Program-made: the position numbers and the translations under genes
In this document: piece after piece, positions 39,706 to 63,918 of the stretch
Numbering within the stretch: the first letter of the stretch is position 1
Layout of the letters: every line of letters starts with the position of its first letter
IMG/VR virus record: IMGVR_UViG_3300010885_082162
Coordinates: 8,039-72,038 of that record
Direction: 5' to 3' (one strand)
DNA: 64,000 bases
Source: a virus
Lineage: Duplodnaviria > Caudoviricetes
The notes under the pieces: generated by a model
The model's database searches: none
What the model was told of the DNA's origin: nothing
What the model saw: only the letters and a program-made list of their open reading frames with translations

Positions 39706-41619
39706 ATGGCACTTATTAATAATACACAAGCCCTCAAATCTGTTAGACAGAGAAACTATTTAGCTAGGGACTTTGATAGCTTTAGAAGTGTGCTGTTAGA
39801 ATACGCTAGACAATATTACCCAGATAAAATTAAAGATTTTTCTGAATCATCTGTAGGTGGTCTGTTTTTAGATATGGCAGCTTATGTTGGTGATAACTTG
39901 TCCTTCTATTTAGATCATCTTTATGGAGAGCTCAATTTCGATACTGTTATTGAGGCTAAAAATATTGAACAGATCATAAAGAACGCAGGCTTACAGATAA
40001 CAGGCGCAGCACCGGCAATTACTCAAGTTGATTTTTATATTGAAGTTCCTGTTGCGGATGATGGCACAGACGCGCCTCCTCCAAGGACCGATCTCTTGGC
40101 AACAATCGTTGCAAACACAGTTTTGCAAGCTGACAACGGAACACGATTTACGCTTATAGAAAATGTTGATTTCTGGCAATCCAATCCTGATACAGGCGTC
40201 ATAGAGTTGAATCCTGCAGTTGATGTAACCATTGGCAGAAGAATTGCTGGGACTGTTGCGACAAGAATATTAAAAGCTTCAGGTCTGTGTATTTCAGGTG
40301 TGCAGACCTCAGAAACATTTCAGATTGGTGAATTTCAACCTTTTAAAACTATTACGCTGTCATTACCTGATGTTTCAAACATACTGTCGGTGATAGATAG
40401 CAAGGGAAACATCTATTATGAAGTTGAGAATTTAACCCATGATGTTGTCTATAAAAATACGCTAAACACGTCTGCTATTGACAGTAGTTTGGTAAAGGAC
40501 TCGTTAAAAGTTGTTCCCGCACCTTACAGATATACAAAGCAAGTTTCAATAACAAATAAAGCTGTTACTTTAACTTTTGGAGGTGGTACCGCAGATTCGC
40601 TTGATGACGATGCAATTCCTGATCCCTCAGAGTTTGCGATTCCTTTAAGATATACACAGACTTTTTCACGTCGAGCTGTTAATCCTCAGCGTTTACTTCA
40701 AACATCAACATTGGGCGTAGGGCCTGCTAATGCATCTTTAACAGTAATATACAGACATGGTGGCGGATTACTACACAACGTCCCGCCAGGCAATATAAAA
40801 ACAATTAATTTTATTGAAATTGAATTTCCCGAGAATCCACCTATTGAGCTGCAAACACAAGTCAAGAATGGAATAGAAGTCTTTAATCCGACGCCTGCAA
40901 CAGGAGGTGAAGACGCACCCACAAATGACGAAATTCTAGCACTGGTTCCTGCGTTAAAGAGCGCTCAAGAGCGAATAGTAACTAAAGAAGACTTACTTGC
41001 AAGAGTCTACACGATGCCGTCAAACTTTGGTAGAGTATTTAGAGCATCTGTTTCTAACAATCCCAATAATCCACTTGCTTCAAGGTTGCATGTTATCTCT
41101 AGAACACCATCAGGCGTTTTAATTCCGTCTCCTGATACACTTAAAATTAATCTTAAGCGTTACTTAAATTCTTACCGAATGATATCAGACGCTATTGACA
41201 TTCTTGATGCGGAAGTTATTAATCTTGAAGTATTCTTTCAAGTTGTTGCTGATCCGTCATACAACAAAACAATATTGATCAAAACGATCATCGAGTCTTT
41301 GCAATTACAGCTTAATTCAACAAACTTTCACATAAATCAGCCAATAGTAAAATCTGATATTGTCAGTACGATATATGCACAACAAGGTGTAATTGGCGTT
41401 GAATCTGTTGTTATAAGAAATTTAGCTGGTATTGTAACAAATAGATCGTATTCTGAGATTGTTTTTGACGTCAGGAGTAATACAAAAAACCAAATTATCT
41501 ATCCGACAGAAGGCGGAATCTTTGAAGTTAGATTTCCTGACATTAATATCATAGGCAGCGGTGTCCAATGTATAAAAACATCAAGACTAAAAAAGACACA
41601 TACATCACCAACAAAGTAA
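39706..41619 (+). CDS. baseplate wedge protein gp6/GpJ-like
   Basis: YLARDFDSFR, DFSESSVG..FLDMAAYVGDNLSFYLD, ATGGED, QERIVTKED. Confidence 0.88.
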   Translation: MALINNTQALKSVRQRNYLARDFDSFRSVLLEYARQYYPDKIKDFSESSVGGLFLDMAAYVGDNLSFYLDHLYGELNFDTVIEAKNIEQIIKNAGLQITGAAPAITQVDFYIEVPVADDGTDAPPPRTDLLATIVANTVLQADNGTRFTLIENVDFWQSNPDTGVIELNPAVDVTIGRRIAGTVATRILKASGLCISGVQTSETFQIGEFQPFKTITLSLPDVSNILSVIDSKGNIYYEVENLTHDVVYKNTLNTSAIDSSLVKDSLKVVPAPYRYTKQVSITNKAVTLTFGGGTADSLDDDAIPDPSEFAIPLRYTQTFSRRAVNPQRLLQTSTLGVGPANASLTVIYRHGGGLLHNVPPGNIKTINFIEIEFPENPPIELQTQVKNGIEVFNPTPATGGEDAPTNDEILALVPALKSAQERIVTKEDLLARVYTMPSNFGRVFRASVSNNPNNPLASRLHVISRTPSGVLIPSPDTLKINLKRYLNSYRMISDAIDILDAEVINLEVFFQVVADPSYNKTILIKTIIESLQLQLNSTNFHINQPIVKSDIVSTIYAQQGVIGVESVVIRNLAGIVTNRSYSEIVFDVRSNTKNQIIYPTEGGIFEVRFPDINIIGSGVQCIKTSRLKKTHTSPTK

Positions 41620-43058
41620 TTAGTGCAAAATCTAAAGTATCAGGTAACGTAGGTTTGGCAGGAACGCTCGACTTATTTAAGTTGCATGATTTGGCACCTG
41701 ACTCATCAGGCGTAACAAATGAAATTTCTAGAATTTTAGTTCATTTTGATCTATCTGATATTGATAATTTGTGGAAATCAGGAAGTATAGACATTAATGA
41801 CAACTCTTTTCAGTGTCAATTATCTTTGACAGATGTATATGGCGGCCAACCAACACCACAGAATTTTACTATAAGCGTTTTTCCGCTCTCGGCTTCTTTT
41901 GAAGAAGGTCTTGGTAAAGATCTTGTTTATTACACAGATGTTGATGCAGCCAACTGGCTATCGTCATCAAGAGGCACACTCTGGAATTCTGCTGGCTGTG
42001 ATTTAGGCGGCGGTGCAACTCAATCACGTGATTTTATTACAAGCTCTGTCAATATTACGTCAACTGAGGCAAAGCAAGAATTTGTTATTGGAACAGAGAA
42101 TTTATTAATTGATGTAACAAAAATTATTTCGGCGACTTTAACAGGTGAACTTCCCGACCGCGGATTTAGAATTTCGTACAGTGGCTCGCTTGAGACAAAC
42201 TCAAACACATATTTTGTGAAGCGTTTTGCAAGTCGTCACGCATATGATGAAACGAAAAGGCCGAAGCTAATCTTCAAATTTGACGACTCCATCATTGATG
42301 ACACACAAAATTTAACATTTGATACTGATTGTAAGATTAATCTCTACAATTACGTAAAGGGTGATCTAAACAATTTAATTTCAGCTTCGACATCTCTTAC
42401 GGGATCCAATTGTGTTAAGCTTAAATTAGTCGCAGAAACAGGTGGTTACTCACTAACTTTCTCAGGATCGCAATTTAAGCTCGGCTCAAATGCAGTGACA
42501 GGTGTTTATACGTCCACAGTTAATATCGACTCTTCAGATGCCACAATTGCAGCAAGAATAGTTGAGTCAGGATCAGTAAAATTTACGCCTGTGTGGATAT
42601 CAAACAGTGCAAACATTACTTTTGTCTCAGGAAGCAAGATAGAAGCAAAAAAACCCGTCAGATCCTCTGCATCAAATAAGAAAAAATTCTACAGAGTAAC
42701 GGTAGGAGGAATTGATCAAAGATATTCTAGTAATCAAGATGTCACAGGAAGAGTTAATATTTTTGATGATAACAATGCGTTTATTAAGCTAGTAAAAACA
42801 CCAGTTGAGTTAGCAGGTATTGTGCTTAGTAATGTTTTTTATTCTGTAAGAGAAATTGAGTCCGGCATTACAGTAATTCCATTTGATGATATCAAAAATT
42901 CAACTAAGGTTTCGAGCGATTCCGAAGGAATGTTCTTTACTTTTAACGCGTCTAATTTTGAAATTGGGAGATCATATGCTATTGATTTAATGATTAAATT
43001 AAATGGTATCAAAAATATCTACCAAGATGCATCAAATGTTTTTCAGATAATACAATAG
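41568..43058 (+). CDS. structural protein (DNRLRE-like beta-sandwich N-terminal region)
   Basis: KDTYIT...SRILVHFDLS...RPKLIF pattern; located in the baseplate cluster. Confidence 0.55.
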   Translation: MYKNIKTKKDTYITNKVISAKSKVSGNVGLAGTLDLFKLHDLAPDSSGVTNEISRILVHFDLSDIDNLWKSGSIDINDNSFQCQLSLTDVYGGQPTPQNFTISVFPLSASFEEGLGKDLVYYTDVDAANWLSSSRGTLWNSAGCDLGGGATQSRDFITSSVNITSTEAKQEFVIGTENLLIDVTKIISATLTGELPDRGFRISYSGSLETNSNTYFVKRFASRHAYDETKRPKLIFKFDDSIIDDTQNLTFDTDCKINLYNYVKGDLNNLISASTSLTGSNCVKLKLVAETGGYSLTFSGSQFKLGSNAVTGVYTSTVNIDSSDATIAARIVESGSVKFTPVWISNSANITFVSGSKIEAKKPVRSSASNKKKFYRVTVGGIDQRYSSNQDVTGRVNIFDDNNAFIKLVKTPVELAGIVLSNVFYSVREIESGITVIPFDDIKNSTKVSSDSEGMFFTFNASNFEIGRSYAIDLMIKLNGIKNIYQDASNVFQIIQ

Positions 43059-43071
43059 TAGAGACTAAATA

Positions 43072-46000
43072 ATGACATTTAAAATAGGATCACTTAGCTC
43101 GCCATCCTTCGTAAAGTCAATTTTACGTGATGCTAAGCCTGTACAGCTTACTGCAGCGGATCTTGTTGAACAACAAGATGCTACAAGCTTTAAAGAATTT
43201 AATTCATTTAAGTATGATCCAATTTCATCACCGTTAAAGAGCACTCAACAACTTAATATAGATTGGTCTAAGTTTGAAAATCATACATTCTTCTCTTCAG
43301 CTGAAGTTAAAGTAAATGATGCATTTAATTTGCTAATTAATAAATTTCCATTCGATGGTACGAAATTAGAAGTACAAAATTTTATTGATAATTTAACTGG
43401 ATTTGAAAAATATATCTTGGAGCAGTTTCCTACATGGTCCGGGGCGCTTCACTTCTCAGGTACTCAAGTCGGTGAAAATCCTGCAAATGGTTATATTTCA
43501 AAATTAGGCACCCACATTGAAGTAAAAGATTATGCAGGTTTCTATTACCCAGAGATATCAAAAAACGTAACCGGTCAAACAATCCTAAATCCAGGCATAA
43601 CAGGTTCGCTTTCTTTAGAAACCCAGATCTATTTACCGACAATTTCAAATTCAAGTCAAGTTGTTTTTCAAAAGGTTTCAAACTCATCCAATGGATTTAC
43701 GCTTTATCTCAACCCTGATTCTTCGACTGCTTATGTTACTGCGAGTTTTTGTGTTTCTTCAGGCTCAAAAAGTGTAAGTACATCAGCAGTATTAACGAAG
43801 GGCGTTTATAATCATATCTGCGTTGTAATGAATAGAGAAGAGCAGCGTCCTGATGTTACCTTACAATTTTATGTAAATGAAAAGTTAAAATCAAATAGTA
43901 ATAAAAGCATTAATATTGGAAAATTAGACATTGACAATAACAGTCTCTATGTTGGATCTGGAAGCGCTTTTTTTAATAACAATACGTTAATAACACCAAC
44001 ACAAACGCTAAGTGGTACAATTGATGAGCTAAGAATTTTTCATGAAGCTAGAAGTCTTGACAAGCAAAAGTTATATGGCAATAGAGGCATATACGCATCG
44101 CCTACTTTAAAATTATACTATCGATTTAATGAGCCACCCATTTTAACAGAAAGCGCAACTGACTCAGTTAATTCGATTGTTTTAGATAGTTCTGGAAATT
44201 CTTTACATTCTTACATCAGTAATTTCACAGGCTCATTAAGAATAAATTCAGAAACTGATAATCTCAATCCTATAAAAAATGAAAAGAGAGAGTTCAATAT
44301 CGTTCTCTTCCCAGCCTATGAAGAAGTGCAGGATTTAAATACACAACTTCTTTCCAGCGCATCGCTGTATGATAATGAAAATCCTAACTATATTATTAAG
44401 CTTATTCCGAAACACTATCTTTTAGAAGGTGCAGCAGAAGATGGTTTCTTTAATGAGCGAGGCAATTCAGGCGGTGCTTATTCAGGTAATGGTATACCTG
44501 GTCAGGGAAAGATTGGCTCCACTCATATTATACTGACTTTTATCTACATATGGGCTAAGTTCTTCGATGACATTAAATTATATGTCGAGTCATTTGGAAA
44601 ATTAAGAACTGTGAGCTATGATGAAAATGAATCAGTTCCTGATAATTTTCTACAAGATATTATAAAGAGTTACGGATTTTACTTCCCAGGTCTATTTCAA
44701 CATTCTGATATCAATAAATTTACTGACGATAGTGAGGGCCCTGAGACTGAGTATTCTACAGGCCAAGCATTTAAAAAAGTTCATACTCAGATATTAAGAA
44801 GAGTAATTGTTAATATAGACGATTTCATCAGATCAAAAGGTACTCAGCACAGTATAAGATCTTTCTTGCGATCAGTAGGTATAGATCCAGATAACAGTCT
44901 AAAAATTCGAGAGTATGGTGGTTATACTACAAATATTCTTGGTTCGTCTAGAAATAAACGACTTGAGCCAATTGCTGTGGTTGACTTTGTTAGCTCATCA
45001 TTTGTAATATCTTCTCCGCTCTCTGCATCAAGAGTCGAGCCTGGTTATCCTTTACCAGGTGGACAATTTGTACTCAACAATGAAGATCAAGTTATTGGTA
45101 CAAATTACGCATCTGACGGCTTGTTAACATCAGGTTCTTGGACATTATCATGTCATTATAAATTTCCGCCTTACAAGCTTGAAACAATAAAAGCAGCAAA
45201 TCAGTCTCTTATGCGCTTAATTGTTACAGGAAGCGAAGCATATGCTCAACCAGGCTTGATTGCAAATGTTGTTGCTGTTCATGGAACTAAGACAGCAGAT
45301 CAAAAAATAATAGCGTATCTAAGACCCGGCACTTCAGGAAGTGCTAATATAGCTTCAAGCTCGCCACTCCTAACAATGTCGCTCAGCATACCAGGCGATG
45401 GAATCTTTGATGGTGAGCGATGGAATGTCGCGTTTGGTAGAAAAAGGTTTGATGAATTTGGCTCAAACTATTTATCCTCTAGCTATTTTCTACGAGCAGG
45501 AAAATCTAACTATGGTGATATTGAAGAGTTATATACTGAGTCTATATTCTTTAATGAAAAATTGCAAAATGAAAAAAATGCATTTGAGTTCTTATCGAGT
45601 TCTTTCAATGCTTCTGGATCTTATATTTGTATAGGTTCACAACAGACAATTCCTGTTTCTGCTATACAATCTTATTCTTTTTTAAATAACTCATTTGAAG
45701 TAGATGATAGTGTCTCAAGAACAGTCAACTTCACAGGATGGGCATCTCATCTTCGATTCTGGTCCAAGGCAATAAGCGAGCCTGAATGGCAAGAGCATGT
45801 TAGGAATTACAAATCTGCAGGCGTTTCTAATGCAAAAATAAACTATAACTTTACAACAAAGGCATCCGGATCTTTTGGCAAACTTAGAATTGATACCTTT
45901 GCAAAACAAATAGATAAGACGTCAAACATAAATGGACAAATTATTTTTATTGATCACAGTAACAATAACTTGCATCTCACCGGATCATATTTTGGATCAG

Positions 46001-46614
46001 GTTCTAACGTTGTAGTAATTGGAGATGTTGAGTCTTATAGCTACTTATCCCCTGATTTTGATGAGGCATCAACTAGCGACAAAGTTAGAATTAGAGGTTT
46101 ACTTAATGAAAGCAATCTTTCCGAGAATCCATTTGCAACATTAGGCCCAGCATATTCTTCTAATGAATCATTCATTAAAGAAGTTCCAATAGATGATACA
46201 AGATTATCAATAGAATTTTCACTCACTGATGCGCTAGATAGAGACATAATAACAATGTTTTCAAGTTTAGAAGAATTAGGTGATGCTATAGGGCGACCTG
46301 AGCTAATGTTCTCACCAGACTATCCCGATCTAGAAACGCTTAGAAATGTTTACTTTAATAGACTTACAGAAAACTTAAATTTTAGAAAATTTTTAGAATT
46401 TTATCGTTGGTTTGATAATTCAATTTCAACATTTATTGAACAACTTATCCCAGGGAAAACAAAATTTAAAGGTACAAATTTTGTGATTGAATCACATATG
46501 TTAGAGCGACACAAGAGAGAGGCTAGACACGGAGACAACTACATAAGTAATAATCAGCAAGCTAGCAAAGAAAATTCACTAAGTCTGGATTTTGCGGCTA
46601 GCATCAAACAATAA
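43072..46614 (+). CDS. large baseplate wedge/tail protein with a LamG (ConA-like) domain
   Basis: LamG-like GVYNHICVV...FYVNEK...SGTIDELRIF (~43620-44110); KGTQHSIRSFLRSVGI wedge-type motif; GTNFVIESHMLER. Confidence 0.7.
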   Translation: MTFKIGSLSSPSFVKSILRDAKPVQLTAADLVEQQDATSFKEFNSFKYDPISSPLKSTQQLNIDWSKFENHTFFSSAEVKVNDAFNLLINKFPFDGTKLEVQNFIDNLTGFEKYILEQFPTWSGALHFSGTQVGENPANGYISKLGTHIEVKDYAGFYYPEISKNVTGQTILNPGITGSLSLETQIYLPTISNSSQVVFQKVSNSSNGFTLYLNPDSSTAYVTASFCVSSGSKSVSTSAVLTKGVYNHICVVMNREEQRPDVTLQFYVNEKLKSNSNKSINIGKLDIDNNSLYVGSGSAFFNNNTLITPTQTLSGTIDELRIFHEARSLDKQKLYGNRGIYASPTLKLYYRFNEPPILTESATDSVNSIVLDSSGNSLHSYISNFTGSLRINSETDNLNPIKNEKREFNIVLFPAYEEVQDLNTQLLSSASLYDNENPNYIIKLIPKHYLLEGAAEDGFFNERGNSGGAYSGNGIPGQGKIGSTHIILTFIYIWAKFFDDIKLYVESFGKLRTVSYDENESVPDNFLQDIIKSYGFYFPGLFQHSDINKFTDDSEGPETEYSTGQAFKKVHTQILRRVIVNIDDFIRSKGTQHSIRSFLRSVGIDPDNSLKIREYGGYTTNILGSSRNKRLEPIAVVDFVSSSFVISSPLSASRVEPGYPLPGGQFVLNNEDQVIGTNYASDGLLTSGSWTLSCHYKFPPYKLETIKAANQSLMRLIVTGSEAYAQPGLIANVVAVHGTKTADQKIIAYLRPGTSGSANIASSSPLLTMSLSIPGDGIFDGERWNVAFGRKRFDEFGSNYLSSSYFLRAGKSNYGDIEELYTESIFFNEKLQNEKNAFEFLSSSFNASGSYICIGSQQTIPVSAIQSYSFLNNSFEVDDSVSRTVNFTGWASHLRFWSKAISEPEWQEHVRNYKSAGVSNAKINYNFTTKASGSFGKLRIDTFAKQIDKTSNINGQIIFIDHSNNNLHLTGSYFGSGSNVVVIGDVESYSYLSPDFDEASTSDKVRIRGLLNESNLSENPFATLGPAYSSNESFIKEVPIDDTRLSIEFSLTDALDRDIITMFSSLEELGDAIGRPELMFSPDYPDLETLRNVYFNRLTENLNFRKFLEFYRWFDNSISTFIEQLIPGKTKFKGTNFVIESHMLERHKREARHGDNYISNNQQASKENSLSLDFAASIKQ

Positions 46615-46624
46615 GAGTTCATAA

Positions 46625-47677
46625 ATGAAACTAAAAAATCCTTTAGAGCCCGATAATCTTAACAATGGTCAGTGGGTTGAAATTTTTACAAATGAAGCAT
46701 CGATTGAAGGTGGAATAAATACTGTTGTAATTGAATCTAGTTTAGATTATTACTCAAGCTTAACTCAAACATCAATCGTTAGAGATAGAAAATTTATAGA
46801 TCGATCTTCATTAAAAAAAATTGTTGGATCGAACACGGTTGCAAATGCATTTGATACATCAATCTCAAAAGATCGAGCAACTAAAACAGGCTATCTGTCA
46901 AGCTCAGTTGATCCTTATCGTCAAGGCGTTGAAATAACTTTACCTCGTCACATTACAGGACTAGTAAAAATATCAGCAGGTACACCAGGGCATTTTATCG
47001 ACCCTGTGCCCTTTGGTGTCAGCGAAAATATTAATCTTACAGATAATGACTTTTTTGAAGAATTAAATCTCTTTAATTCTGTTGAGTTTATACAAGCGCA
47101 AGATAGCAATAAATTAATTGAGCAGATAATCACATTTCCAATAGTCACATCAGATACTAATCAGAGAGAAAATTCTGTTTTAAACGGGATTATAGAACCT
47201 TTTCCTATAAGACCAATCATCTCTTATTTTAGTATATATTTTCCAGCAGAGCCTCACGGCATAAAAGCAAATTTTTCTAATGGCGACATTCTTGTAAAGA
47301 AAGCATCTGATATTGTTAGCAGTGTATATGACTTCTTGCCAAACGCTGTTAATAAAGAGATATTTCTTGATGCTGGCGAACCAATCACAATGTCAAATGA
47401 TGAGGGCACAAGTACAGTAGAAGTTGGACCAAGTATACCGTATACGTCTACAGACACAAACTTCATAGAACCATTTAAAGATATCGTATTTGCGCGCGGT
47501 GATGTATTAGAGCTTACACGAAATTACGATAATGATCTTTTATCTGCTGTTAGAGCTCTCCTGCCGATGGAAACAACCTACTTAAATATAAATCAAATTT
47601 CAGGTAGAACTGGTTTTTCGTATAATAATTCCATACAAGGTGTAGATTCAATTGTTTATGGAGGCTTATCTAGATAA
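46625..47677 (+). CDS. hypothetical structural protein
   Basis: Between tail genes, TAATG-coupled to the next ORF. Confidence 0.6.
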   Translation: MKLKNPLEPDNLNNGQWVEIFTNEASIEGGINTVVIESSLDYYSSLTQTSIVRDRKFIDRSSLKKIVGSNTVANAFDTSISKDRATKTGYLSSSVDPYRQGVEITLPRHITGLVKISAGTPGHFIDPVPFGVSENINLTDNDFFEELNLFNSVEFIQAQDSNKLIEQIITFPIVTSDTNQRENSVLNGIIEPFPIRPIISYFSIYFPAEPHGIKANFSNGDILVKKASDIVSSVYDFLPNAVNKEIFLDAGEPITMSNDEGTSTVEVGPSIPYTSTDTNFIEPFKDIVFARGDVLELTRNYDNDLLSAVRALLPMETTYLNINQISGRTGFSYNNSIQGVDSIVYGGLSR

Positions 47678-54179: not shown

Positions 54180-54186
54180 AGAAAAT

Positions 54187-57100
54187 ATGACTATACCCAC
54201 AGAAAAAAATCCAAATGATGCTTTCGCTTATCTACTAAGTAGCTCGGATGAAAATTCTAAACTGATGAGGACAGCAGTGCTTTCAGATTTTCAAGTAGGT
54301 CTACCTGAAAACCCAAGTGAATTACAACTTACAGGCAGAATTTCATATAGCACTGCATTTGCTGAGGTTCAACCCAGCCAAATAGTTTATTTTCCTCCTG
54401 ACGTTACTATCTTTCTTGTCTCAACTCTTCCATTTGAAATTTTAAGGACGGGTGTTGCGTATAGCCAGCTTGAAGATTTTAAACAAACAATAACAGTCGT
54501 GTTGCCACAAGATCCTCGCGTCGGTCAAGTCTGCTACGTTAAAGATGCGTCAGGAACAGCTCACGTCTGTGCAATAAAGATTCAGGGTTCTAAGATAGAC
54601 GGAGATGATAGTAAATTATTAGATTATAAAGACGGTTGCATCGGTCTTATATGGTCCGGCGCAGCTTGGTCAACGCTATCAGATGGTAATCAAAGCTCAT
54701 CAGATAACAATTTACTCAATAAGACAATTCAAGCTGCAATAGAAAGTTATGGTCCTGCAACAACTGATCCTGCTTATATTGTTTTAGCATCATCTCCTTC
54801 ATTGCCAAATGAAAGGGTGCTCACTGCTGGATCTGGTATTACCATCACTGACGCCGGCGCAGGAGGCAGTTTAACTATTACCGCGGCGGGTGGTGGTGGT
54901 TCCGGTGACGTCGTGGGCCCTGCTAGCGCAACAGATAATGCGATCGCTAGATTTGATCTAACAACGGGCAAGCTGATACAAAACTCTGGTGTTACAATTG
55001 ATGATTCTAATAATGTGACTGTAGCTGGCCGCATTATTGTGACAGGCGGTACGACCTCAGTAACAGATGCAACGCTTGGTAATGCAGCTGTGGGTTCTTT
55101 CCCTTACTATGATGGTGGCGGCAATTCTGCTGTGTACGCAATGTTTGGTCACAAAGATCTTGACCACGCTTCTGTTGTAACCAATTATGCTCTATACCAA
55201 GATAATACAGGTAACACATCAATAAACGCATCCAATGGAAAAAATCTGTATTTTTCTGTTAATAACGTTGCTATGGGTGCAATAACAAATGATATTGGTT
55301 CTGGCGTAGATGCAATACTCTTTACGGGCGATTTATCGACAAGAACAGATATAACGCTCGGTAATACAACAGGTGTTTCAGCAACAACAATTAATGCAGG
55401 TACTGGTGATCTCAATATCGGTCATAATGCTGCGGATCGAAATGTTAATTTAGGCACAGGCAATAATTCAACAGAGCAAGAAGTTACTGTAGGCAGTACA
55501 TTTGGAAGGTCTCCCCTTGTTCTTAGAGCAGGAACTGGCGACATGTATTTAACGGGCACTGTATCTACTGATTTTATAATTGGGCATACAGCAGGAACTG
55601 GTGATATAACTGTAGGTAGATCAACTGCAAGTAATACGATAAATATTGGTAATGCTAATACTGTAACTACAAAAACGCAAACTATTAATATAGGCGCTGG
55701 TACACCAGCAGGAACTGGAAAAGCTACTGTTACTATTGGTAACCCTGGTGGCGCTTCTGCGATAACGCTTCAGGCAGGCTCAGGCGGAATTATACTTTCA
55801 GGGTCGGCAACAACAGTAATCACAGGATCAACATCAGGACAGGCTGATGCTTACATCGGAACAGTTGAAATAGGCGAGCTTCCTGCTACGAAAACGTCTT
55901 TTCCAGCAGTTTATGCCATGTTCGGCCACAAAGATCTTGATCATAGCACAGATGGTAATTATGCCCTTGTTCAAAGCAATGTTGGCGATACATACTTGGG
56001 TGCAGCTTCAGCAAAAGCTGTGGTATTTAAAAATGGAACAAGCATTATCGGTTATCTAGACGATAATGAAATATCGCTAACAGGCAAACCCAGCGTTGCT
56101 CAAACTGTTACGCTCGGCTCTACAACAGGTGCTTCTGCTTTAACACTTGATGCAGGCACAGGAACTATAAATATAGGCACATCTGCTTCTGCTAGAACCA
56201 CAGACATAGCTACGGCAGCAGCCAATCAAACTGTTACACTCGGTTCAACCCATGGTGGTTCTTCTTTAACTTTAAACGCAGGTTCTGGGAGCCTGAATCT
56301 AGGCGCATCAAATGCGATAAGAAACATAAACATAGGAACAGGCACATCGGTTCAAACAATTGGCATCGGAACAGGAGCTGCAGCAAATGCAATCACGATA
56401 GGCAGCAGTGCTGCATCAATCATCACGATTAATGGTGGCGATGCTTTAAATCTGTATACCGATAATGGTTCACTAACGATTGATAGTGGTACAGGTAATA
56501 TAAATATTGGAACCTTTGGTTATGCAAGAACCACAGAAATAGCTACAGGAGCAGCCAATCAAACTGTTACATTAGGTTCAACCCATGGCGGTTCTTCTTT
56601 AGCTTTAAACGCAGGTTCTGGCAGCTTGAATGTAGGCACATCCAACTCGGCTCGAACAATTAACATTGGCTCAGACCCAGCCGGCACTGCGACTACTCAA
56701 CAAACGATAAATATTGGAGCTAAAAATACAGTCGGCTTTAATATGTTACATCTTATAGATGAAGATTCTTCAAATGGTCATGAAATTTATATACTCAGTG
56801 ATAATGGAACTCAAGCAGGAGGAATCAGCGTTGTTGAAATAGGCACAGTCGCAGCAGCAACAACGATTGAAATCGGAAAATCTACAGTTGGTGTCAAGGA
56901 TATCACGATAGGCGGAACCGGTGGTGCTTCTGCTACAACAATTAATGCAGGCACAGGAGGAATAACTCTTTCTGGATCGGCAACAACAATAATTACAGGT
57001 TCGTCTACAACAAATGCCGAAGCATATATTGGATTGGTTGAAATTGGTGAATTACCGTGGTCAAAGTCGACATTCCCAGGTGTTTATGCAATGTTTGGTC

Positions 57101-58224
57101 ATAAAACATTAGCACATACTGGCTTAAACTACGGATTAGTCCAATCAAACGTAGGTGATACTTTCTTAAATGCAGCTTCTGGCAAGAGCGTGTTTATAGC
57201 TAACAATGGAAGTGCAATTGCACAAATTGATACAAGCGTTACAAACTTTACTGGCTCTTTAACTACCACAATAACGGGTAACTCGACAATAATAAGTGGC
57301 AGTAATTCTCTAACATTGATGTCTAGAGTTAACGGCGGACGTCTGTTATTATCTGGTTCTTCCATTTTAGTGACAGGAAGTATTGGTATAAACTTGCCTG
57401 GACGAACCCCTGTTAACGGCTCCGGTATACACATTAAACAATACAAAGATCCAACTGCAGTTGGCACTACTGTTACAGATAATAGCGCTGCACTTCGTAT
57501 AGAAGATGATGATGGTGATGGCTGGATAATCGGCGCAGGTAGCGATAATCATCTATGGTTTAGTTGGGATTCCTCGTTTGTTGGCGGAGATGGAACGTCG
57601 ACAGCACAAGGTTACATTAGATCTACTACTAATGCTTTTACATTAATGAATTTTACAGGGCAGCATAGATGCGTGCCGCACGCAGGCGTTGTAGCAGATT
57701 TTAGCGAAAAGATTGGTTTGATAGTAATTACGTCGGGTGACTATCTTAATCCTATTTCAGGTTCAACAACAGGTTCTTATAACAGAAATATCGGAATTAA
57801 TGATGCAACACCAACAGTTCTCCTAGCATCATCTAGAAATGACAAAAGAGCACTTGGCGTTGTATCTGAAATAGAAGATGTTTCTGACGGTGCCCGAGAA
57901 TTTGCTGTAGGCAAATTTGTAAGTGTGACTGAATCAGGCGGTGCCGAAGATAATCGTTTATTTATTAATGCTATTGGAGAAGGTGCAATTTGGGTGTGCA
58001 ATATTAATGGCAGCTTAGAGAATGGCGATTATATTACAACGTGTGAAATACCAGGTTATGGAATGAAACAAGATGATGACCTGCTTCACAATTATACTGT
58101 AGCAAAGATCACATGTAATTGTGATTTTTCTTTAAATAATAATCTTTATCAATGTGAAGAATTGATACACGAAGGCGTCACTTATCGCAGAGCTTTTGTG
58201 GGTTGCACTTACCACTGCGGTTAA
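54187..58224 (+). CDS. long tail-fibre-like protein with internal repeats and a C-terminal FTGQH...TYHCG intramolecular-chaperone-like domain
   Basis: Gly/Thr-rich beta-repeats (TINIG, TLGST), three YAMFGHK modules, C-terminal NFTGQHRC...GDYITT...YTVAKIT...CTYHCG. Confidence 0.75.
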   Translation: MTIPTEKNPNDAFAYLLSSSDENSKLMRTAVLSDFQVGLPENPSELQLTGRISYSTAFAEVQPSQIVYFPPDVTIFLVSTLPFEILRTGVAYSQLEDFKQTITVVLPQDPRVGQVCYVKDASGTAHVCAIKIQGSKIDGDDSKLLDYKDGCIGLIWSGAAWSTLSDGNQSSSDNNLLNKTIQAAIESYGPATTDPAYIVLASSPSLPNERVLTAGSGITITDAGAGGSLTITAAGGGGSGDVVGPASATDNAIARFDLTTGKLIQNSGVTIDDSNNVTVAGRIIVTGGTTSVTDATLGNAAVGSFPYYDGGGNSAVYAMFGHKDLDHASVVTNYALYQDNTGNTSINASNGKNLYFSVNNVAMGAITNDIGSGVDAILFTGDLSTRTDITLGNTTGVSATTINAGTGDLNIGHNAADRNVNLGTGNNSTEQEVTVGSTFGRSPLVLRAGTGDMYLTGTVSTDFIIGHTAGTGDITVGRSTASNTINIGNANTVTTKTQTINIGAGTPAGTGKATVTIGNPGGASAITLQAGSGGIILSGSATTVITGSTSGQADAYIGTVEIGELPATKTSFPAVYAMFGHKDLDHSTDGNYALVQSNVGDTYLGAASAKAVVFKNGTSIIGYLDDNEISLTGKPSVAQTVTLGSTTGASALTLDAGTGTINIGTSASARTTDIATAAANQTVTLGSTHGGSSLTLNAGSGSLNLGASNAIRNINIGTGTSVQTIGIGTGAAANAITIGSSAASIITINGGDALNLYTDNGSLTIDSGTGNINIGTFGYARTTEIATGAANQTVTLGSTHGGSSLALNAGSGSLNVGTSNSARTINIGSDPAGTATTQQTINIGAKNTVGFNMLHLIDEDSSNGHEIYILSDNGTQAGGISVVEIGTVAAATTIEIGKSTVGVKDITIGGTGGASATTINAGTGGITLSGSATTIITGSSTTNAEAYIGLVEIGELPWSKSTFPGVYAMFGHKTLAHTGLNYGLVQSNVGDTFLNAASGKSVFIANNGSAIAQIDTSVTNFTGSLTTTITGNSTIISGSNSLTLMSRVNGGRLLLSGSSILVTGSIGINLPGRTPVNGSGIHIKQYKDPTAVGTTVTDNSAALRIEDDDGDGWIIGAGSDNHLWFSWDSSFVGGDGTSTAQGYIRSTTNAFTLMNFTGQHRCVPHAGVVADFSEKIGLIVITSGDYLNPISGSTTGSYNRNIGINDATPTVLLASSRNDKRALGVVSEIEDVSDGAREFAVGKFVSVTESGGAEDNRLFINAIGEGAIWVCNINGSLENGDYITTCEIPGYGMKQDDDLLHNYTVAKITCNCDFSLNNNLYQCEELIHEGVTYRRAFVGCTYHCG
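56191..56631 (+). repeat. 108-bp imperfect direct repeat (56191-56298 and 56524-56631) within the fibre gene
   Basis: Both copies encode ARTT[DE]IAT.AANQTVTLGSTHGGSSL.LNAGSGSLN; offset 333 nt, in frame. Confidence 0.88.
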
Positions 58225-58725: not shown

Positions 58726-58753
58726 CTATCTCCTGTATAAATAATGAGTATTC

Positions 58754-59143: not shown

Positions 59144-59182
59144 GAATAGCTTCTGAAAAGATTATAACATTAATGGTAAAAT

Positions 59183-59644: not shown

Positions 59645-59657
59645 TGACGACAATTTA

Positions 59658-59894: not shown

Positions 59895-60001
59895 TGTTTT
59901 CTCCTAGTTGTCTAATTTTTACGGAAATTTATCCGCGGCTCTATTTATCAATGTTTTTTGAAGTTGTACATTAATTTATAAACTATTCGTCTTCACCATC
60001 A

Positions 60002-60031
60002 TATAATACATGTTATTATAATACATGTTAT
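60002..60031. repeat. perfect 15-bp tandem duplication TATAATACATGTTAT x2 in a divergent intergenic region
   Basis: Read directly; gives TATAAT on both strands. Confidence 0.88.
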
Positions 60032-60104
60032 GTTGCCAACTTCAAGTAATAGTTATCCGTGACTAAATGAAATCGTCTACTAATTTCAGAAAGTTTAATC
60101 AATA

Positions 60105-62543
60105 ATGAGTTATAGAGACTCACAACGATTTAGAAAGGTGTATGGGTACTATAGGCCTGTCCCGCGGCCGGCTGACACATTAACTTTGGCTGATAATAAT
60201 TATGTTAATGAAGTCGTTGCAGGAATAGATTGGAAACAGTCAGTTAGAGTAGCATCGACTGCCAATATTAATTTAGTTGCGCCCGGCAATATCGATTCAA
60301 TCGCGTTAGTTGATGAAGATAGAGTTCTCTTAAAGTCTCAAACAGCCACAGCAGAGAACGGCATTTACATTTACTACACTGCGACAAATACGCTTATTAG
60401 ATCACTCGACGCTGAACAAGATACGCTGACTAGCGGTGCTGCTGCATATGTCGAAGAGGGCACAGTAAATAGTAGCACAGCATGGATTTTATCAACAATC
60501 GACCCTATAACTGTCGGCACAACTGGGCTGATTTGGGTATTGCTCTCAGGCTCACAAGTTTTTATTAAGTCTGGGTCTTACGCTCATTCAACTGTCAATG
60601 TCTCTTTTGGCGATGAGTTTACAAATGCAATCGGCTCAAACATATTTTTCTACGTTTCAGGAACGATTGGATCTACAAATAATCCACAAATTAGCGTCTT
60701 CGGTGGTGATCTTCTTACTAGCGGTTCATTAAAAGTCGGCGACGACGTCAATGCTGAGCGTTTCTTTATAAGAATTCCTGAGTCTTCACTTAACTCATCT
60801 CCTGTTGGAAGCATAACAGGCTCGGCACAAGGCATTGTTTTATCGTCATCTCAAGACTTAAGATTCACAGTAAATTCTGGCTCTTATAATCTTGCAACTA
60901 CAACTGATTCTGCAAACTATAGCCTTGTATTTGGGTCAGGATCGTTAGTCGAATCCATTCTTAACGCAAAGTATGATGGATATGCTTACTATCGCAAAGG
61001 TTTTTTGTTTGGATCGAATATAACAGCATCAGGAACGTTGGACGTTACTTCTATCGGTACACTTAGACCTGGCTGGGACGATGAAAGAGATGTTGATCTC
61101 TTTTATAATGGCATGTTGTTAAATGATGGCAGTGCTGTTACAGGCGACTATGAATTTATTGATGATCATACTGTTTTATTTAATTCGACATCGGTAGGTC
61201 CATTTGAGTCAGGCGACATAATCTCTGTAGTCATAAAAAATTCTAATGGTGCGCCATACGGGATGGCTTATGTTCCTCCGCCTGCTGTAACAATGGGAGG
61301 AGATGTCACTGGCGATTCTAACTCTTCTACTGTCGTGAGAATTAGAAGCAGAGCTATTTCTTCTGTTGGCCCTAGTGATGGTGATGTTTATATTTTTAAT
61401 TCTTCACAAAATCAGTGGAACCCATCTACAACGTTTACATCGCCAGTTAGCTTTACGCTAGGCCTCAGCGGATCGCATACAAAGCTTGCAAACGGAACAT
61501 CTGCTTTTATTGGCGGATCTGGCATTCTCATCACATCAGCTTCAAATGGTGCAGTAACAATTACCTCATCAGGTGCAGGTACGCCTGACGGAATTAATAC
61601 ATACATTCAGTTTAATGATGGCGGATCATTCGGAGGTGATTCAGGTTTAACTTATAATAAAACATCTAATGAACTTTTTGTTTCTGGCGCTGTGCTTATT
61701 GGCACATCATCTGCTCCCACACTAGAAGTACTTGTTGCTAATCAAGTCTTGACATCTAGCGGCGGCACATACACCACAATGGGTAGCCGATTTGTGTCCG
61801 TATTGACAGGCTCAGAATTATTTAGCTCGCATTACGGATTAATAAATACTGTCACGTCCAAAGTTGCAACAGGCCCAGGCACCGCGGTGAATGGACAAGG
61901 AAATTTTGCGTACCACGCATCGACATCTTCGATTAGTAACTTGTGGGGTTATTATAATGCAGCTATTGCAGTAAAACCTGATGACGGAACAACTGCAGGA
62001 TTACTTTCATCTGCTATTGGAGATGCCTCGGTGATGGGCTTCTTGGCTGCTGAAAATTTTTCTGGCTCTATCACAAATGCATATGGTTTTAGATATAACA
62101 ATACTGGCATTAATAGCAATAGAACAATAACAAATTCTTTTGGTATGCAGATTTTAAATGTTGGTGCTGCAGCAGGTGTAACAAATGCAATTGGTCTTGA
62201 TATTGCTTCAATTAATACAGCGTCAGGAATTAAGTTAGGTATTCGTACACAAGATCCAATTGTTATTGGATCATCTAACGTTGTAGGATCAGAAAAATTA
62301 AGAATCGTAGGCGATACACGGTCAGAAGGAACATTGACCAGTGTAGGTGATATTATGCCAGCTGCAGATACAACATATAATTTAGGTTCTGATTCAAATC
62401 GTTGGGCCAACATATACACAGGCGACTTACATCTAAGAAATGATCGTGGCGATTGGACGATAGTCGAAGAAATAGACTACTTGTGTGTTGTAAATAACGT
62501 AACAGGAAAAAAATACAAAATGATGCTTGAGCCCATTGAATAA
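60105..62543 (+). CDS. fibre-like structural protein with C-terminal chaperone-like domain
   Basis: DWKQSVRVAST...DRVLLKSQ...ENGIY N-module, IQFNDGGSFGGDSGLTYNK module, C-term RWANIYTGDLHLRNDRGDWTIVEE. Confidence 0.78.
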   Translation: MSYRDSQRFRKVYGYYRPVPRPADTLTLADNNYVNEVVAGIDWKQSVRVASTANINLVAPGNIDSIALVDEDRVLLKSQTATAENGIYIYYTATNTLIRSLDAEQDTLTSGAAAYVEEGTVNSSTAWILSTIDPITVGTTGLIWVLLSGSQVFIKSGSYAHSTVNVSFGDEFTNAIGSNIFFYVSGTIGSTNNPQISVFGGDLLTSGSLKVGDDVNAERFFIRIPESSLNSSPVGSITGSAQGIVLSSSQDLRFTVNSGSYNLATTTDSANYSLVFGSGSLVESILNAKYDGYAYYRKGFLFGSNITASGTLDVTSIGTLRPGWDDERDVDLFYNGMLLNDGSAVTGDYEFIDDHTVLFNSTSVGPFESGDIISVVIKNSNGAPYGMAYVPPPAVTMGGDVTGDSNSSTVVRIRSRAISSVGPSDGDVYIFNSSQNQWNPSTTFTSPVSFTLGLSGSHTKLANGTSAFIGGSGILITSASNGAVTITSSGAGTPDGINTYIQFNDGGSFGGDSGLTYNKTSNELFVSGAVLIGTSSAPTLEVLVANQVLTSSGGTYTTMGSRFVSVLTGSELFSSHYGLINTVTSKVATGPGTAVNGQGNFAYHASTSSISNLWGYYNAAIAVKPDDGTTAGLLSSAIGDASVMGFLAAENFSGSITNAYGFRYNNTGINSNRTITNSFGMQILNVGAAAGVTNAIGLDIASINTASGIKLGIRTQDPIVIGSSNVVGSEKLRIVGDTRSEGTLTSVGDIMPAADTTYNLGSDSNRWANIYTGDLHLRNDRGDWTIVEEIDYLCVVNNVTGKKYKMMLEPIE

Positions 62544-62604
62544 GATTCAATGATGAATAATTAATATTGCAATTAAACTTTGCAATTTATAGGAGAAAAT
62601 TATT

Positions 62605-63918
62605 ATGGCTTTAGTTGGACACATATCTGGCAGTACACAGTCTAATTCTGTTATTGGTGTATCAGGATCAGTAATAGTTGCAAATAGATCATCAGCATTG
62701 TTCCCAGCAATGCCTGGGACTGATGTATCATTTTTCGTTTCTGGCTCAAAAGATGGAACAAGTCAAAGTCTTTTTGGCGGCGCCTTATTAGCATCAGGTT
62801 CTTTTAACCTAAAATCAGGCACAGGCGGAATATCACAATTTTCTGTTGACTCGACTGGGCTGTTAATAAACACAGCTGCAGGCACACCAATGATCACGCT
62901 CGCCGCGAGCAACGGCAATATCACCACAGCCGGTGACATTGCTGTCAACGGCGGTGATATTACAACAACATCAGCCTCTGCAACATTGTTCAACTCTAGC
63001 GCAACAACTGTTTCAATAGCCGCAGCAGGTACTGCAATTTCTATTGGATCTGCAGCTGGAACAGGAACCACCACAGTTAACAACAACCTTGCTGTTACAA
63101 AAAACGTAACTGTCACAGGAGATCTAACGGTCAATGGTGCGATGACCACTGTCAACACAACAAATCTTGAAGTAAAAGATTCAGTCATCGGTCTTGGATT
63201 CGCTTCTGGGACAATTGCCCAGACAGCAGGTGATCGTGGGTGGATCGGCGGACAGGCCGGTACAAACAACGTGATGAGCAAGTGGGATAACGCTTCTTCA
63301 GAGTTTGCATTTGCAACCACAACATCTTCGGCAACAGGAAGCTTTGGAATCGCAGCTTATTCTAATCTTCATGCAAATAACATCCAGGGTAATATCGTTT
63401 CTGCTTCACTAGGTTTCTCAGGATCTTTGACAAAATTGATGGATGGAACTTCATACATCATCGCCGGGAGCGGAATGACCGTTGCATCTGCATCCAACGG
63501 AGCAATTACACTTTCTACATCAGGCAGTGGCGGCGACGTTACTGGTCCTGGCAGCGCAACTGCAAATGCTGTAGTGCTTTTTGATGGAGTAACAGGTAAA
63601 CTCATCAAGAACTCTGGATTAACAACAGACGGCTCTAATTCACTTTTTATTGCAGGAACGCTTGGTGTTTCTGGTTCGACAACATTTGGCGCTTCAGCAT
63701 TGCCATCTGCAGATATGACATATGATCTTGGATCACCATCATTCAGGTGGGCTAACGTATATACCGGCGATTTACATCTTCGTAATGATCGCGGAGATTA
63801 TACCCTCATCGAGGAAGAAGATTTCTTAACCATTAGATTTAACAAAACAGGCAAGCGATACAAATTCCTTCTTGAAAGCACCCCAGAACTTGATGAGGAT
63901 CCAACACTTAAGTTCTAA
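62605..63918 (+). CDS. fibre-like structural protein with C-terminal chaperone-like domain
   Basis: RBS AGGAG; GDLTVNGAMTTVNTTNLEVKD module; C-term RWANVYTGDLHLRNDRGDYTLIEEEDFL. Confidence 0.78.
   Translation: MALVGHISGSTQSNSVIGVSGSVIVANRSSALFPAMPGTDVSFFVSGSKDGTSQSLFGGALLASGSFNLKSGTGGISQFSVDSTGLLINTAAGTPMITLAASNGNITTAGDIAVNGGDITTTSASATLFNSSATTVSIAAAGTAISIGSAAGTGTTTVNNNLAVTKNVTVTGDLTVNGAMTTVNTTNLEVKDSVIGLGFASGTIAQTAGDRGWIGGQAGTNNVMSKWDNASSEFAFATTTSSATGSFGIAAYSNLHANNIQGNIVSASLGFSGSLTKLMDGTSYIIAGSGMTVASASNGAITLSTSGSGGDVTGPGSATANAVVLFDGVTGKLIKNSGLTTDGSNSLFIAGTLGVSGSTTFGASALPSADMTYDLGSPSFRWANVYTGDLHLRNDRGDYTLIEEEDFLTIRFNKTGKRYKFLLESTPELDEDPTLKF

What the first reader, a model, noticed from the sequence alone, without database searches (positions are those of the whole stretch)
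41568..63918. [S/T]-G-S motif recurs densely in the outer structural proteins: candidate glycosylation sequon
Seen: S-G-S or T-G-S recurs in unrelated domains of the ORFs at 41568 (KSGS, YSGS, LTGS, FSGS, ESGS, VSGS), 43072 (ITGS, SSGS, FTGS, TSGS, VTGS, ASGS x2, LTGSYFGSGS), 47677 (more than ten), 51348, 54187, 60105 and 62605, often after a hydrophobic residue. Related S-A-S and S-S-S triplets are also common. I found none in the gp5-like or gp6-like proteins and almost none in the glycan enzymes. Inference: an acceptor sequon for the island's initiating GT (Ser-Gly is the animal proteoglycan xylosylation site), selected independently in many surface proteins.
Basis: partly seen in the sequence, partly recalled or inferred. 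Interest (0 to 1): 0.8.

Follow-up and report, generated by a model that had tools for sequence, protein, structure and literature searches.

The report
Ser/Thr-Gly-Ser tag on phage tail proteins
The outward-facing tail, baseplate and fibre proteins of this uncultured jumbo phage and its many aquatic relatives carry the tripeptide Ser/Thr-Gly-Ser about four times too often, and the excess travels with one conserved pair of phage sugar-transferase genes, so it is probably where a phage-made sugar coat is attached, though no chemistry shows this yet.

Summary
In the eight late ORFs at 41568-63918, [ST]-G-S occurs 65 times against about 15 expected. SGS and TGS are the two most over-represented of all 8000 tripeptides. 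The other 49 ORFs of the window hold 3 against about 7 expected. Codon usage in the motif is diverse, so selection acts on the protein.

The excess is not peculiar to this island. It appears in 78 related viral contigs, in the cultured phages immuto, Mel-JY01 and RM378, and in 6 of 6 further contigs chosen only for carrying the same sugar-transferase cassette.

T4, phiKZ and Ma-LMM01 show none. S-PM2 and HTVC008M show a weak version. All five lack the cassette.

Every strongly enriched phage has the adjacent GT4 pair ORF30875/ORF32136. The rest of the glycan island is variable.

Sheath and capsid orthologues are enriched only in carriers. Published DNA chemistry of immuto shows no glycosylated base.

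My best reading, at about 50%, is an enzyme-read O-glycosylation tag on exposed virion proteins. The main rival is a structural motif inherited within the lineage. There is no chemical evidence.

This scan has found the same pattern before on other DNA, in at least 8 earlier follow-ups.

The parts
41568..43058 (+). f505 protein (496 aa), first gene after gp6-like. It is beta-sandwich/CBM- and Ig-like. It has 6 [ST]GS sites, 4 of them conserved across the clade.
   Evidence: Model m905ce4257738 has pLDDT 86.7. Foldseek gives CBM and Ig-like hits.
43072..46614 (+). f1170 protein (1180 aa) with a LamG_3 domain at residues 177-329. It has 11 [ST]GS sites. SGS687 and SGS932 are essentially invariant in 55 homologues.
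   Evidence: Model mc4d7824a890a. Foldseek gives LamG/pentraxin hits.
46625..47677 (+). 350-aa structural protein of the same module with no motif (0 against 0.4 expected). Homologues in other clade members have 0-4.
47677..51351 (+). f1224 protein (1224 aa) with a LamG_3/pentraxin-like domain at residues 328-481. It has 14 [ST]GS sites. They are conserved in 8-15 of 15 orthologues, and 3 are also conserved in homologues at about 30% identity.
51348..54179 (+). 943-aa protein, paralogous to the C-terminal part of ORF47677. It has 5 sites against 1.6 expected.
54187..58224 (+). 1345-aa Gly/Thr-rich fibre-like protein with internal repeats. It has 12 sites against 3.9 expected.
60105..62543 (+). 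812-aa tail-fibre protein. The N-terminal domain matches tail-fibre and head-decoration PHROGs, and there is a weak endosialidase-like hit near the C-terminus. It has 9 sites against 2.5 expected.
62605..63918 (+). 437-aa virion structural protein with 8 sites against 2.0 expected.
30875..32143 (+). GTa: a GT4-family (GT-B) glycosyltransferase with an intact EX7E-type motif. It is the conserved partner of the tag in all enriched phages.
   Evidence: Pfam PF00534 at 2.9e-15. Best PDB relative is chlorovirus B736L at 7e-8. Homologues are in G001, immuto, Mel-JY01 and RM378. There are more than 580 relatives in viral contigs.
32136..33335 (+). GTb: a second GT4-family glycosyltransferase, overlapping GTa by 8 nt, also with an EX7E-type motif. 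It is a core gene of the clade.
   Evidence: Present in 5 of 5 further large clade contigs at 54-57% identity. Adjacent to GTa in 73 of 80 loci.
30013..30834 (+). PD-(D/E)XK nuclease that precedes the GT pair in 75 of 80 loci. Its role in this system, if any, is unknown.
4560..6473 (+). 637-aa protein with a central GT2 domain. It is 55-64% identical across the jumbo clade but absent from immuto and Mel-JY01, so it is not required for the tag.
6470..29716 (+). Variable part of the glycan island (GT2, GT11, GT6, GT4, sugar-nucleotide and tailoring enzymes). Almost none of it has a counterpart in G001, immuto or Mel-JY01. I infer these are elaborating enzymes.
39706..41619 (+). gp6-like baseplate wedge protein. 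It serves as an internal negative control: 0 motifs here and about 0.1 per sequence in 57 homologues.
33663..34508 (+). Late sigma-factor-like protein between the GT pair and the baseplate module.
   Evidence: phrog_234, 6.8e-6.

Best explanation
[ST]-G-S (more loosely [ST]-[GAS]-[ST]), usually flanked by hydrophobic strand residues, is an enzyme-read tag on the outward-facing virion proteins: distal baseplate, fibres, outer sheath domains and capsid. I infer that the conserved cytoplasmic GT4 pair (ORF30875 and ORF32136) attaches the first sugar or sugars to a Ser/Thr of the tag on folded or folding structural proteins. I also infer that the variable enzymes of the island (6470-29716 here, and different sets in relatives) then extend it into a lineage-specific glycan coat.

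Shown here: the excess, its restriction to particular proteins, its conservation, and its co-occurrence with the GT pair. Not shown: that the tag is glycosylated at all, which residue is modified, and which GT initiates.
For: 1. Size and specificity: 65 against about 15 expected, with SGS and TGS ranked 1 and 2 of 8000. Asn, Asp or Ala at either flanking position gives no excess.
2. The signal is at the protein level, not the DNA level.
3. Purifying selection: motif S/T is kept at 0.83 against 0.56-0.71 for S/T in general. SGS is present in 61 of 62 sequences at one column of a family with 49% median identity. Substitutions are SAS, SSS, SGT and TGT.
4. It is not a generic property of the folds. 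T4 gp7-12 and gp34-37 give 7 against 7.5. Genome-wide, T4 gives 16/25, phiKZ 26/31 and Ma-LMM01 29/32. For orthologues of the same fold, sheath plus major capsid give 22 against 6.3 in carriers (p=9e-7) and 6 against 4.1 in non-carriers. Portal, gp6 and TerL are at about zero in both groups.
5. Topology: all 15 sheath sites map to the equivalent of T4 gp18 residues 60-321, the outer domains as I recall them, and none to the inner C-terminal domain. The rest of each proteome is at expectation.
6. Co-occurrence: GTa and GTb are in all strongly enriched phages, namely G001-G006, immuto and Mel-JY01, with GTa plus a weak GTb in RM378. Six of six contigs picked only by GTa homology show the excess next to their gp6-like gene. 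The five non-carrier myophages have no GT2 or GT4 above threshold.
7. The GT pair is the only conserved part of otherwise variable glycan islands. That is the usual layout of initiating enzymes plus elaborating enzymes.
8. The DNA rival is weakened. HPLC-UV-MS of immuto DNA found dA, dC, dT and fdPreQ1 only (PMC10516641).
9. Secondary-structure contexts in two models are heterogeneous: hairpin turns, strand N- and C-caps, helix-strand junctions and one mid-strand site. This does not look like one canonical turn.
Against: - There is no chemical evidence of glycosylation for any of these phages.
- All carriers belong to one very broad superclade (gp6-like about 30-33% identical). Co-occurrence may therefore reflect shared ancestry and not function.
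- S-PM2 and HTVC008M show a mild excess (1.5-1.6 fold genome-wide, 2-3 fold in a few giant structural proteins) without the GT pair or any GT2/GT4 above threshold.
- Faust, TJE1 and phiPsal1 have distant GTa/GTb-like enzymes and no excess.
- 13 of 17 modelled sites lie within two residues of a beta-strand end, and most are at fixed columns. A structural motif would look the same.
- Solvent exposure could not be computed, because the tools return no coordinates.
- The constant PD-(D/E)XK nuclease next to the GT pair is unexplained.
- The acceptor specificity of GT4 enzymes cannot be read from sequence.
Confidence: 0.5

Rival explanations
1. This is a lineage-inherited structural motif. [ST]-G-S would be a strand-capping, beta-bulge or turn element of the particular beta-sandwich, LamG or beta-helix domains used for outer virion proteins in this superclade. 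It would be kept because it stabilises folding or assembly. The GT pair would do something else, such as remodelling a host surface glycan, and would co-occur only through common descent.
For: Most sites sit at strand ends or hairpins. Most are fixed at conserved columns, and Gly is as conserved as the hydroxyl residues. One site is the conserved Gly of the LamG 'FxGxID' motif. A mild excess with similar hydrophobic flanks occurs in HTVC008M and S-PM2, which have no GTs above threshold. All carriers are related.
Against: A purely conformational Gly turn normally tolerates Asn, Asp or Gly at the flanks, yet NGS, DGS, SGN, SGD, AGS and SGA show no excess. Gly is replaced by Ala or Ser at several sites, which argues for a small residue and not for a positive-phi requirement. 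Contexts are structurally heterogeneous. Orthologous sheath and capsid proteins of the same fold carry the excess only in carriers. T4, phiKZ and Ma-LMM01 fibres lack it. Non-homologous proteins in RM378 and in the fibres of each lineage carry it.
Confidence: 0.3
2. It is a tag read by something other than a glycosyltransferase. Candidates are another post-translational modification (phosphorylation, acylation) or a recognition element for a phage assembly chaperone or a host factor.
For: The pattern is specific for hydroxyl residues, conserved and limited to outer proteins, so it looks enzyme- or partner-read. Nothing ties it chemically to sugars.
Against: No kinase, acyltransferase or chaperone gene was found to co-vary with it. 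The only gene set seen to travel with it is the GT cassette.
Confidence: 0.12
3. The excess is a by-product of composition, low-complexity Ser/Gly runs or internal repeats.
For: The late proteins are rich in Ser, Thr and Gly. ORF54187 has internal repeats. One Mel-JY01 protein is a Gly/Ser/Thr repeat.
Against: Per-protein shuffles give p<=0.001 in six of the seven motif-bearing ORFs and 0.014 in the seventh. SGS is still 41 against 18.3 under a dipeptide expectation. The flanks are hydrophobic and not low-complexity. The contexts are unrelated in sequence.
Confidence: 0.02

Closest known systems
Mycobacteriophage virion glycosylation by phage-encoded glycosyltransferases (Freeman et al. 2023, Cell Host Microbe; seen here only as cited in PMC12619734, because the paper itself is not held)
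   Same: Phage-encoded GTs sit near or within structural genes, and the modification is on virion proteins made in the cytoplasm. The proposed role is to shield or alter the virion surface.
   Different: In that system, as cited, the glycans sit at the C-termini of the capsid and tail-tube subunits of siphophages. Here the candidate sites are short internal tripeptides on the baseplate, fibres, sheath and capsid of aquatic myophages. The conserved enzymes are a specific GT4 pair. Nothing has been shown chemically.
Bacterial autotransporter heptosyltransferases (Aah/AIDA-I, TibC/TibA)
   Same: From my own knowledge: cytoplasmic O-glycosylation of many Ser residues in beta-strand/short-loop/beta-strand elements of a beta-rich surface protein, read as a structural motif and not as a long sequon.
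   Different: Those enzymes are GT9-like and iron-containing, and they act on one or a few adhesins. Here the conserved enzymes are GT4 and the targets are many unrelated virion proteins.
GtfA/GtfB O-GlcNAcylation of serine-rich-repeat adhesins (accessory Sec system)
   Same: Two adjacent GT-B/GT4-type proteins act in the cytoplasm on S-x-S type motifs with a small middle residue.
   Different: The NCBIfam GtfA match of ORF32136 is only 19 bits against a cut-off of 574.6. Both phage GTs keep an EX7E-type motif, whereas GtfB is non-catalytic as far as I know. The targets here are isolated tripeptides in folded domains, not long Ser-rich repeats.
Chlorovirus and giant-virus virion glycosylation by virus-encoded enzymes (for example PBCV GT B736L, PDB 3oy2)
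   Same: The virus encodes its own glycosylation machinery without a lipid carrier or ER. B736L is the best solved relative of GTa (7e-8).
   Different: These are eukaryotic viruses. As I recall, chlorovirus capsid glycans are N-linked at atypical sites. The B736L match is only slightly better than matches to other GT4 enzymes.

Membership tests
Virus-encoded virion glycosylation (mycobacteriophage type) | Phage-encoded glycosyltransferases conserved with the virion module | tested here: met
   The GT4 pair is conserved in all enriched phages. It lies directly upstream of the late sigma and baseplate genes in this clade.
Virus-encoded virion glycosylation (mycobacteriophage type) | Glycans chemically demonstrated on virion proteins | not testable with these tools
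   This needs glycoprotein staining or mass spectrometry of virions. No such data were found.
Virus-encoded virion glycosylation (mycobacteriophage type) | Acceptor sites at the C-termini of capsid and tail-tube subunits | tested here: not met
   The candidate sites are internal and lie mainly on baseplate, fibre and sheath proteins.
   The flanks are hydrophobic and E/D-G-S is not enriched. The conserved enzymes are GT4. The whole island was not screened for GT14.
GtfA/GtfB serine-rich-repeat glycosylation | Membership of the GtfA equivalog family; one catalytic and one non-catalytic GT-B partner | tested here: not met
   TIGR02918 scores 19 bits against a cut-off of 574.6. Both partners keep an EX7E-type motif.
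BAHT autotransporter heptosyltransferases | GT9-type heptosyltransferase | tested here: not met
   The conserved pair is PF00534/GT4. The other island ORFs scanned gave GT2, GT11, GT6, GT4 and HtrL hits. ORFs 12850-29716 were not scanned.
DNA glycan hypermodification by phage GTs (Pyle et al. 2024, as cited in PMC12619734) | Glycosylated non-canonical nucleosides in virion DNA | tested here: not met
   Published HPLC-UV-MS of immuto DNA found dA, dC, dT and fdPreQ1 only (PMC10516641). Only this one carrier has been tested.
Laminin_G_3 / ConA-like lectin domain (for ORF43072 and ORF47677) | Pfam PF13385 above the gathering score, with a jelly-roll fold | tested here: met
   45.5 and 58.6 bits against a cut-off of 27.6. 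Foldseek hits are to LamG and pentraxin domains.

The most novel reading that the evidence does not exclude
A very large superclade of aquatic T4-related myophages (about 130-370 kb, hosts from Flavobacterium to Microcystis to Rhodothermus) coats the exposed faces of its tails, baseplates, fibres and capsids with phage-made glycans. These are attached at a three-residue O-glycosylation sequon, [ST]-G-S, by a conserved cytoplasmic GT4 pair. Hypervariable glycan islands then diversify them into virion 'serotypes'. This would be the first sequon-defined protein glycosylation system of tailed phages, and it is predictable from sequence.
Probability: 0.45. Interest if true: 0.9.

Novelty: new variant of a known kind. 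Interest (0 to 1): 0.72.

Why it matters
If the tag is a glycosylation site, it would explain why so many large aquatic phages carry big glycan-enzyme islands that have no lipid-carrier or export genes. It would give a sequence rule for predicting which virion proteins, and which residues, are modified.

It would also point to a glycan coat on phage particles as a widespread trait. Such a coat could shield against host defences or grazers, affect stickiness and decay in water, or tune adsorption.

It is directly testable because three carriers are in culture: immuto, Mel-JY01 and RM378. Even if the tag proves structural, a three-residue motif this specific, conserved and lineage-restricted in outer virion domains would still need explaining.

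Tried and rejected
- **DNA-level motif:** rejected, because codons within the motif are diverse.
- **Composition or low complexity:** rejected.
- **ORF4560 GT2 as the partner enzyme:** rejected. It is absent from immuto and Mel-JY01, which still have the excess.
- **Any GT predicts the motif:** not supported. Faust, TJE1 and phiPsal1 have GT clusters, including distant GTa/GTb-like enzymes, without the excess.
- **DNA glycosylation as the job of the GT pair:** made unlikely for immuto by published nucleoside chemistry.
- **Solved relatives of the motif-rich proteins:** none found by sequence. Foldseek gave only generic CBM, Ig and LamG folds and no T4 baseplate protein, so the motif could not be mapped on an experimental structure.
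- **PHROGs and Pfam for the extra enriched proteins of G001 and for ORFs 34875-39144:** no hits.
- **Megablast of the late region against cultured phages:** no match.
- **Literature:** no report of this motif or of glycosylated virions in these phages. Freeman et al. 2023 is not held.
- **Solvent exposure of the sites:** could not be computed, because the structure tool returns secondary structure and confidence but no coordinates.
- **Strict TGS-over-SGT ordering as a universal property:** not upheld in G001 or Mel-JY01.

Full report
**What the window is.** The window is bases 8039-72038 of a 72-kb IMG/VR viral contig that CheckV estimates at about 22% complete, so this is a jumbo phage. A roughly 29-kb glycan-enzyme island lies at 4560-33335. 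It is followed by a late sigma-like gene, gp25-like and gp6-like baseplate genes, and then eight large late ORFs at 41568-63918.

**Observation.** I translated 57 non-overlapping ORFs and counted [ST]GS against the expectation from each protein's own composition and against 1000 shuffles.
- The late ORFs hold 65 instances against about 15 expected. Per ORF the counts are 6/0.9, 11/1.8, 0/0.4, 14/2.2, 5/1.6, 12/3.9, 9/2.5 and 8/2.0.
- The remaining 49 ORFs, including the gp5-like, gp6-like and glycan enzymes, hold 3 against about 7.
- Among all 8000 tripeptides, SGS (41 against 8.4, p=8e-16) and TGS (24 against 6.9) rank first and second. SAS is also raised (18 against 6.4).
- SGT, TGT, AGS, NGS, DGS, SGA, SGN and SGD are at expectation.
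- Under a dipeptide-aware expectation SGS is still 41 against 18.3, but TGS is only 24 against 17.0.
- Codons in the motif follow ordinary usage, and no 9-mer dominates. Selection is therefore on the protein.
- The flanks are hydrophobic at -3, -2, -1, +1 and +3 (0.49-0.58 against a background of 0.31). This pattern suggests strand, motif, strand.

**Breadth.**
- Homologues of ORF47677 range from 96% down to about 26% identity. Orthologues keep the sites in 8-15 of 15 sequences. Homologues at about 30% identity keep three of them and are still 2.3-6 fold enriched at other positions.
- A profile scan of viral contigs returned 78 loci. In nearly every one, the syntenic ~505-aa, ~1170-aa and ~1000-1400-aa proteins and the downstream fibres are 3-6 fold enriched, and the ~614-aa gp6-like protein has essentially none.
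- In non-redundant alignments, 51-76% of instances sit at columns occupied in at least half of the sequences. One example is SGS in 61 of 62 sequences at 49% median identity. Replacements are SAS, SSS, SGT and TGT. The remainder sit at low- or mid-occupancy columns.
- Motif residues are conserved above background: S/T is kept at 0.83 against 0.56-0.71, and Gly at 0.78 against 0.64-0.81.
- The gp6-like gene led to cultured distant relatives. Flavobacterium phage immuto has 61 against 13.3 downstream of gp6, and Microcystis phage Mel-JY01 has 45 against 6.1. SGS and TGS rank 1-4 in both.

**Controls.**
- T4 gp7-12 and gp34-37 give 7 against 7.5, with SGS ranked 1320th.
- Genome-wide, over ORFs of at least 150 aa, the ratios were: T4 0.64, phiKZ 0.83, Ma-LMM01 0.91, Faust 1.21, TJE1 1.00, phiPsal1 0.69. 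S-PM2 gave 1.48 and HTVC008M 1.63. RM378 gave 2.54, immuto 2.51, Mel-JY01 2.60 and G001 (a complete 369-kb clade member) 1.77.
- In the enriched genomes the excess is carried by 4-12 proteins. The rest of each proteome is near expectation: 38/30, 34/25 and 65/58.

**What travels with the excess.** I compared every window protein with the complete genomes of G001, immuto and Mel-JY01.
- Almost all of the island (6470-29716) has no counterpart in them. ORF30013, ORF30875 and ORF32136 are present in all three.
- ORF30013 is a PD-(D/E)XK nuclease. ORF30875 (GTa) and ORF32136 (GTb) are GT4/GT-B enzymes, and both keep an EX7E-type motif.
- GTa's best solved relative is the chlorovirus enzyme B736L, though only modestly ahead of other GT4 enzymes.
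- GTb is present at 54-57% identity in 5 of 5 further large clade contigs. RM378 has GTa and a weak GTb next to it.
- The GT2-containing ORF4560 is conserved only within the jumbo clade.
- T4, phiKZ, Ma-LMM01, S-PM2 and HTVC008M have neither GTa nor GTb, and no GT2 or GT4 above threshold.

**A prediction test.** A GTa profile led by RM378 found more than 580 relatives in viral contigs.
- Among the best 80 loci, 73 have GTb and 75 have the nuclease alongside, followed by variable sugar genes. None has the sigma/gp6 neighbourhood of this clade.
- I fetched six of the largest of these contigs whole, chosen only by GTa homology and size. All six show the excess (ratios 1.6-2.7, with 1-5 strongly enriched ORFs). 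In the five that hold a gp6-like gene, enriched ORFs lie in the block right next to it; G011 has no detected gp6-like gene.
- These contigs have a gp6 about 32% identical to ours. They belong to the same very broad superclade, so they are not phylogenetically independent.

**Same fold, with and without the GT pair.** Using T4 seeds I collected orthologues across the genomes.
- Sheath plus major capsid give 22 against 6.3 in four carriers (p=9e-7) and 6 against 4.1 in non-carriers.
- Portal, gp6 and terminase are at or below expectation in both groups.
- All 15 sheath sites of carriers align to the equivalent of T4 gp18 residues 60-321. As I recall from the gp18 structure, these are the outward-facing domains. 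None lies in the conserved C-terminal inner domain.

**Structure.** AlphaFold models were built from 54-55 homologues each: f505 at pLDDT 86.7 and f1170 at 72.9.
- They place the 17 sites in a tight hairpin, loops between neighbouring strands, strand N-caps and C-caps, helix-strand junctions, one mid-strand position and a few longer loops. Thirteen lie within two residues of a strand end.
- This is not one canonical turn type.
- One site in ORF47677 (FTGSIDD) is the conserved Gly of the LamG 'FxGxID' motif.
- Foldseek sees only CBM, Ig and LamG/pentraxin folds. No solved relative exists by sequence.

**Rival role for the GTs.** Phage GTs can hypermodify DNA (Pyle et al. 2024, cited in PMC12619734). 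For immuto, published HPLC-UV-MS of digested DNA found canonical dA, dC and dT plus fdPreQ1 replacing dG, and no glycosylated nucleoside (PMC10516641). PMC12619734 describes a lineage of large aquatic phages ('moraphages') with four core GT orthogroups of unassigned function. That description is compatible with this clade, but I did not test membership.

**Interpretation.** Chance, composition and a DNA word are excluded. The pattern requires a hydroxyl residue at both flanks and a small residue in the middle. It is conserved, is restricted to exposed virion proteins, and is absent from orthologues of the same fold in phages that lack the GT pair. It therefore looks like a tag that something reads.

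The only gene set found to travel with it is the nuclease-GTa-GTb cassette, which is also the one constant element of otherwise variable glycan islands. I therefore favour an O-glycosylation tag, at about 0.5.

The main rival, at about 0.3, is a structural strand-capping motif inherited within the superclade, with the GTs doing something else. It is supported by the strand-end positions, the fixed columns, the relatedness of all carriers, and the mild excess in S-PM2 and HTVC008M without GTs. There is no chemical evidence for either reading.

**Earlier notes of this scan.** At least eight earlier follow-ups on other genomes report the same tripeptide excess with a conserved GT pair. These are unchecked AI notes. 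I reproduced the core claims independently on this window's relatives, but they are not independent evidence.

Noticed in passing
window 30013-33335; loci L200-L278: A PD-(D/E)XK nuclease gene precedes the GTa-GTb pair in 75 of 80 viral loci. This is as constant as the pair itself. Why a nuclease should be locked to two glycosyltransferases is unexplained.
   Followed up: partly
window 4560-6473: This 637-aa protein has a central GT2 domain (residues about 333-443) and about 330 unassigned N-terminal residues. It is 55-64% identical across the jumbo clade, much more conserved than the structural proteins, but has no homologue in 50,697 cultured phage records.
   Followed up: partly
Mel-JY01 (L082/W02) 83441-84932: The GTa homologue of Microcystis phage Mel-JY01 is split into two adjacent ORFs (190 aa and 302 aa). 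This could be a frameshift, a sequencing error or a genuinely split gene.
   Followed up: no
G008:C1:21438-23231 and G010:C1:86040-87905: The gp6-like matches in two GT-cassette contigs each contain one in-frame TAA.
   Followed up: no
window 54187-58224: ORF54187 has long internal repeats. For example, the segments around residues 538-546 and 929-937, and around 700 and 811, are near-copies. It is unusually rich in Gly and Thr (13.4% and 12.5%).
   Followed up: no
window 47677-54179: ORF51348 (943 aa) is a paralogue of part of ORF47677. Both hit the same single gene in G001 and in most related loci, which suggests a duplication or split in this lineage.
   Followed up: partly
S-PM2 (W07) 53491-63507 and 165928-177267; HTVC008M (W08) 37918-54905: A few giant structural proteins of these marine T4-like phages show a 2-3 fold [ST]GS excess, partly with hydrophobic flanks. 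Neither genome has GTa, GTb or any GT2/GT4 above threshold.
   Followed up: partly
Mel-JY01 (W02) 635-4591: Two adjacent proteins (805 and 508 aa) are extremely rich in S-G-T and S-G-S (37 and 13 [ST]GS instances). SGT reaches 91 against 11.6 expected over the enriched ORFs. They lie next to a 1227-aa protein that carries a GTb-like domain.
   Followed up: no
immuto (W01) 135031-136152: This 373-aa hypothetical protein, among head and neck structural genes, has 12 [ST]GS against 1.3 expected. That is the densest in that genome. Its identity is unknown.
   Followed up: no
window 60105-62543: The N-terminal domain (residues about 30-165) matches PHROGs annotated both as tail fibre and as head decoration. 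A weak endosialidase-type hit (PF12219, 8e-4, below the cut-off) lies near the C-terminus.
   Followed up: no
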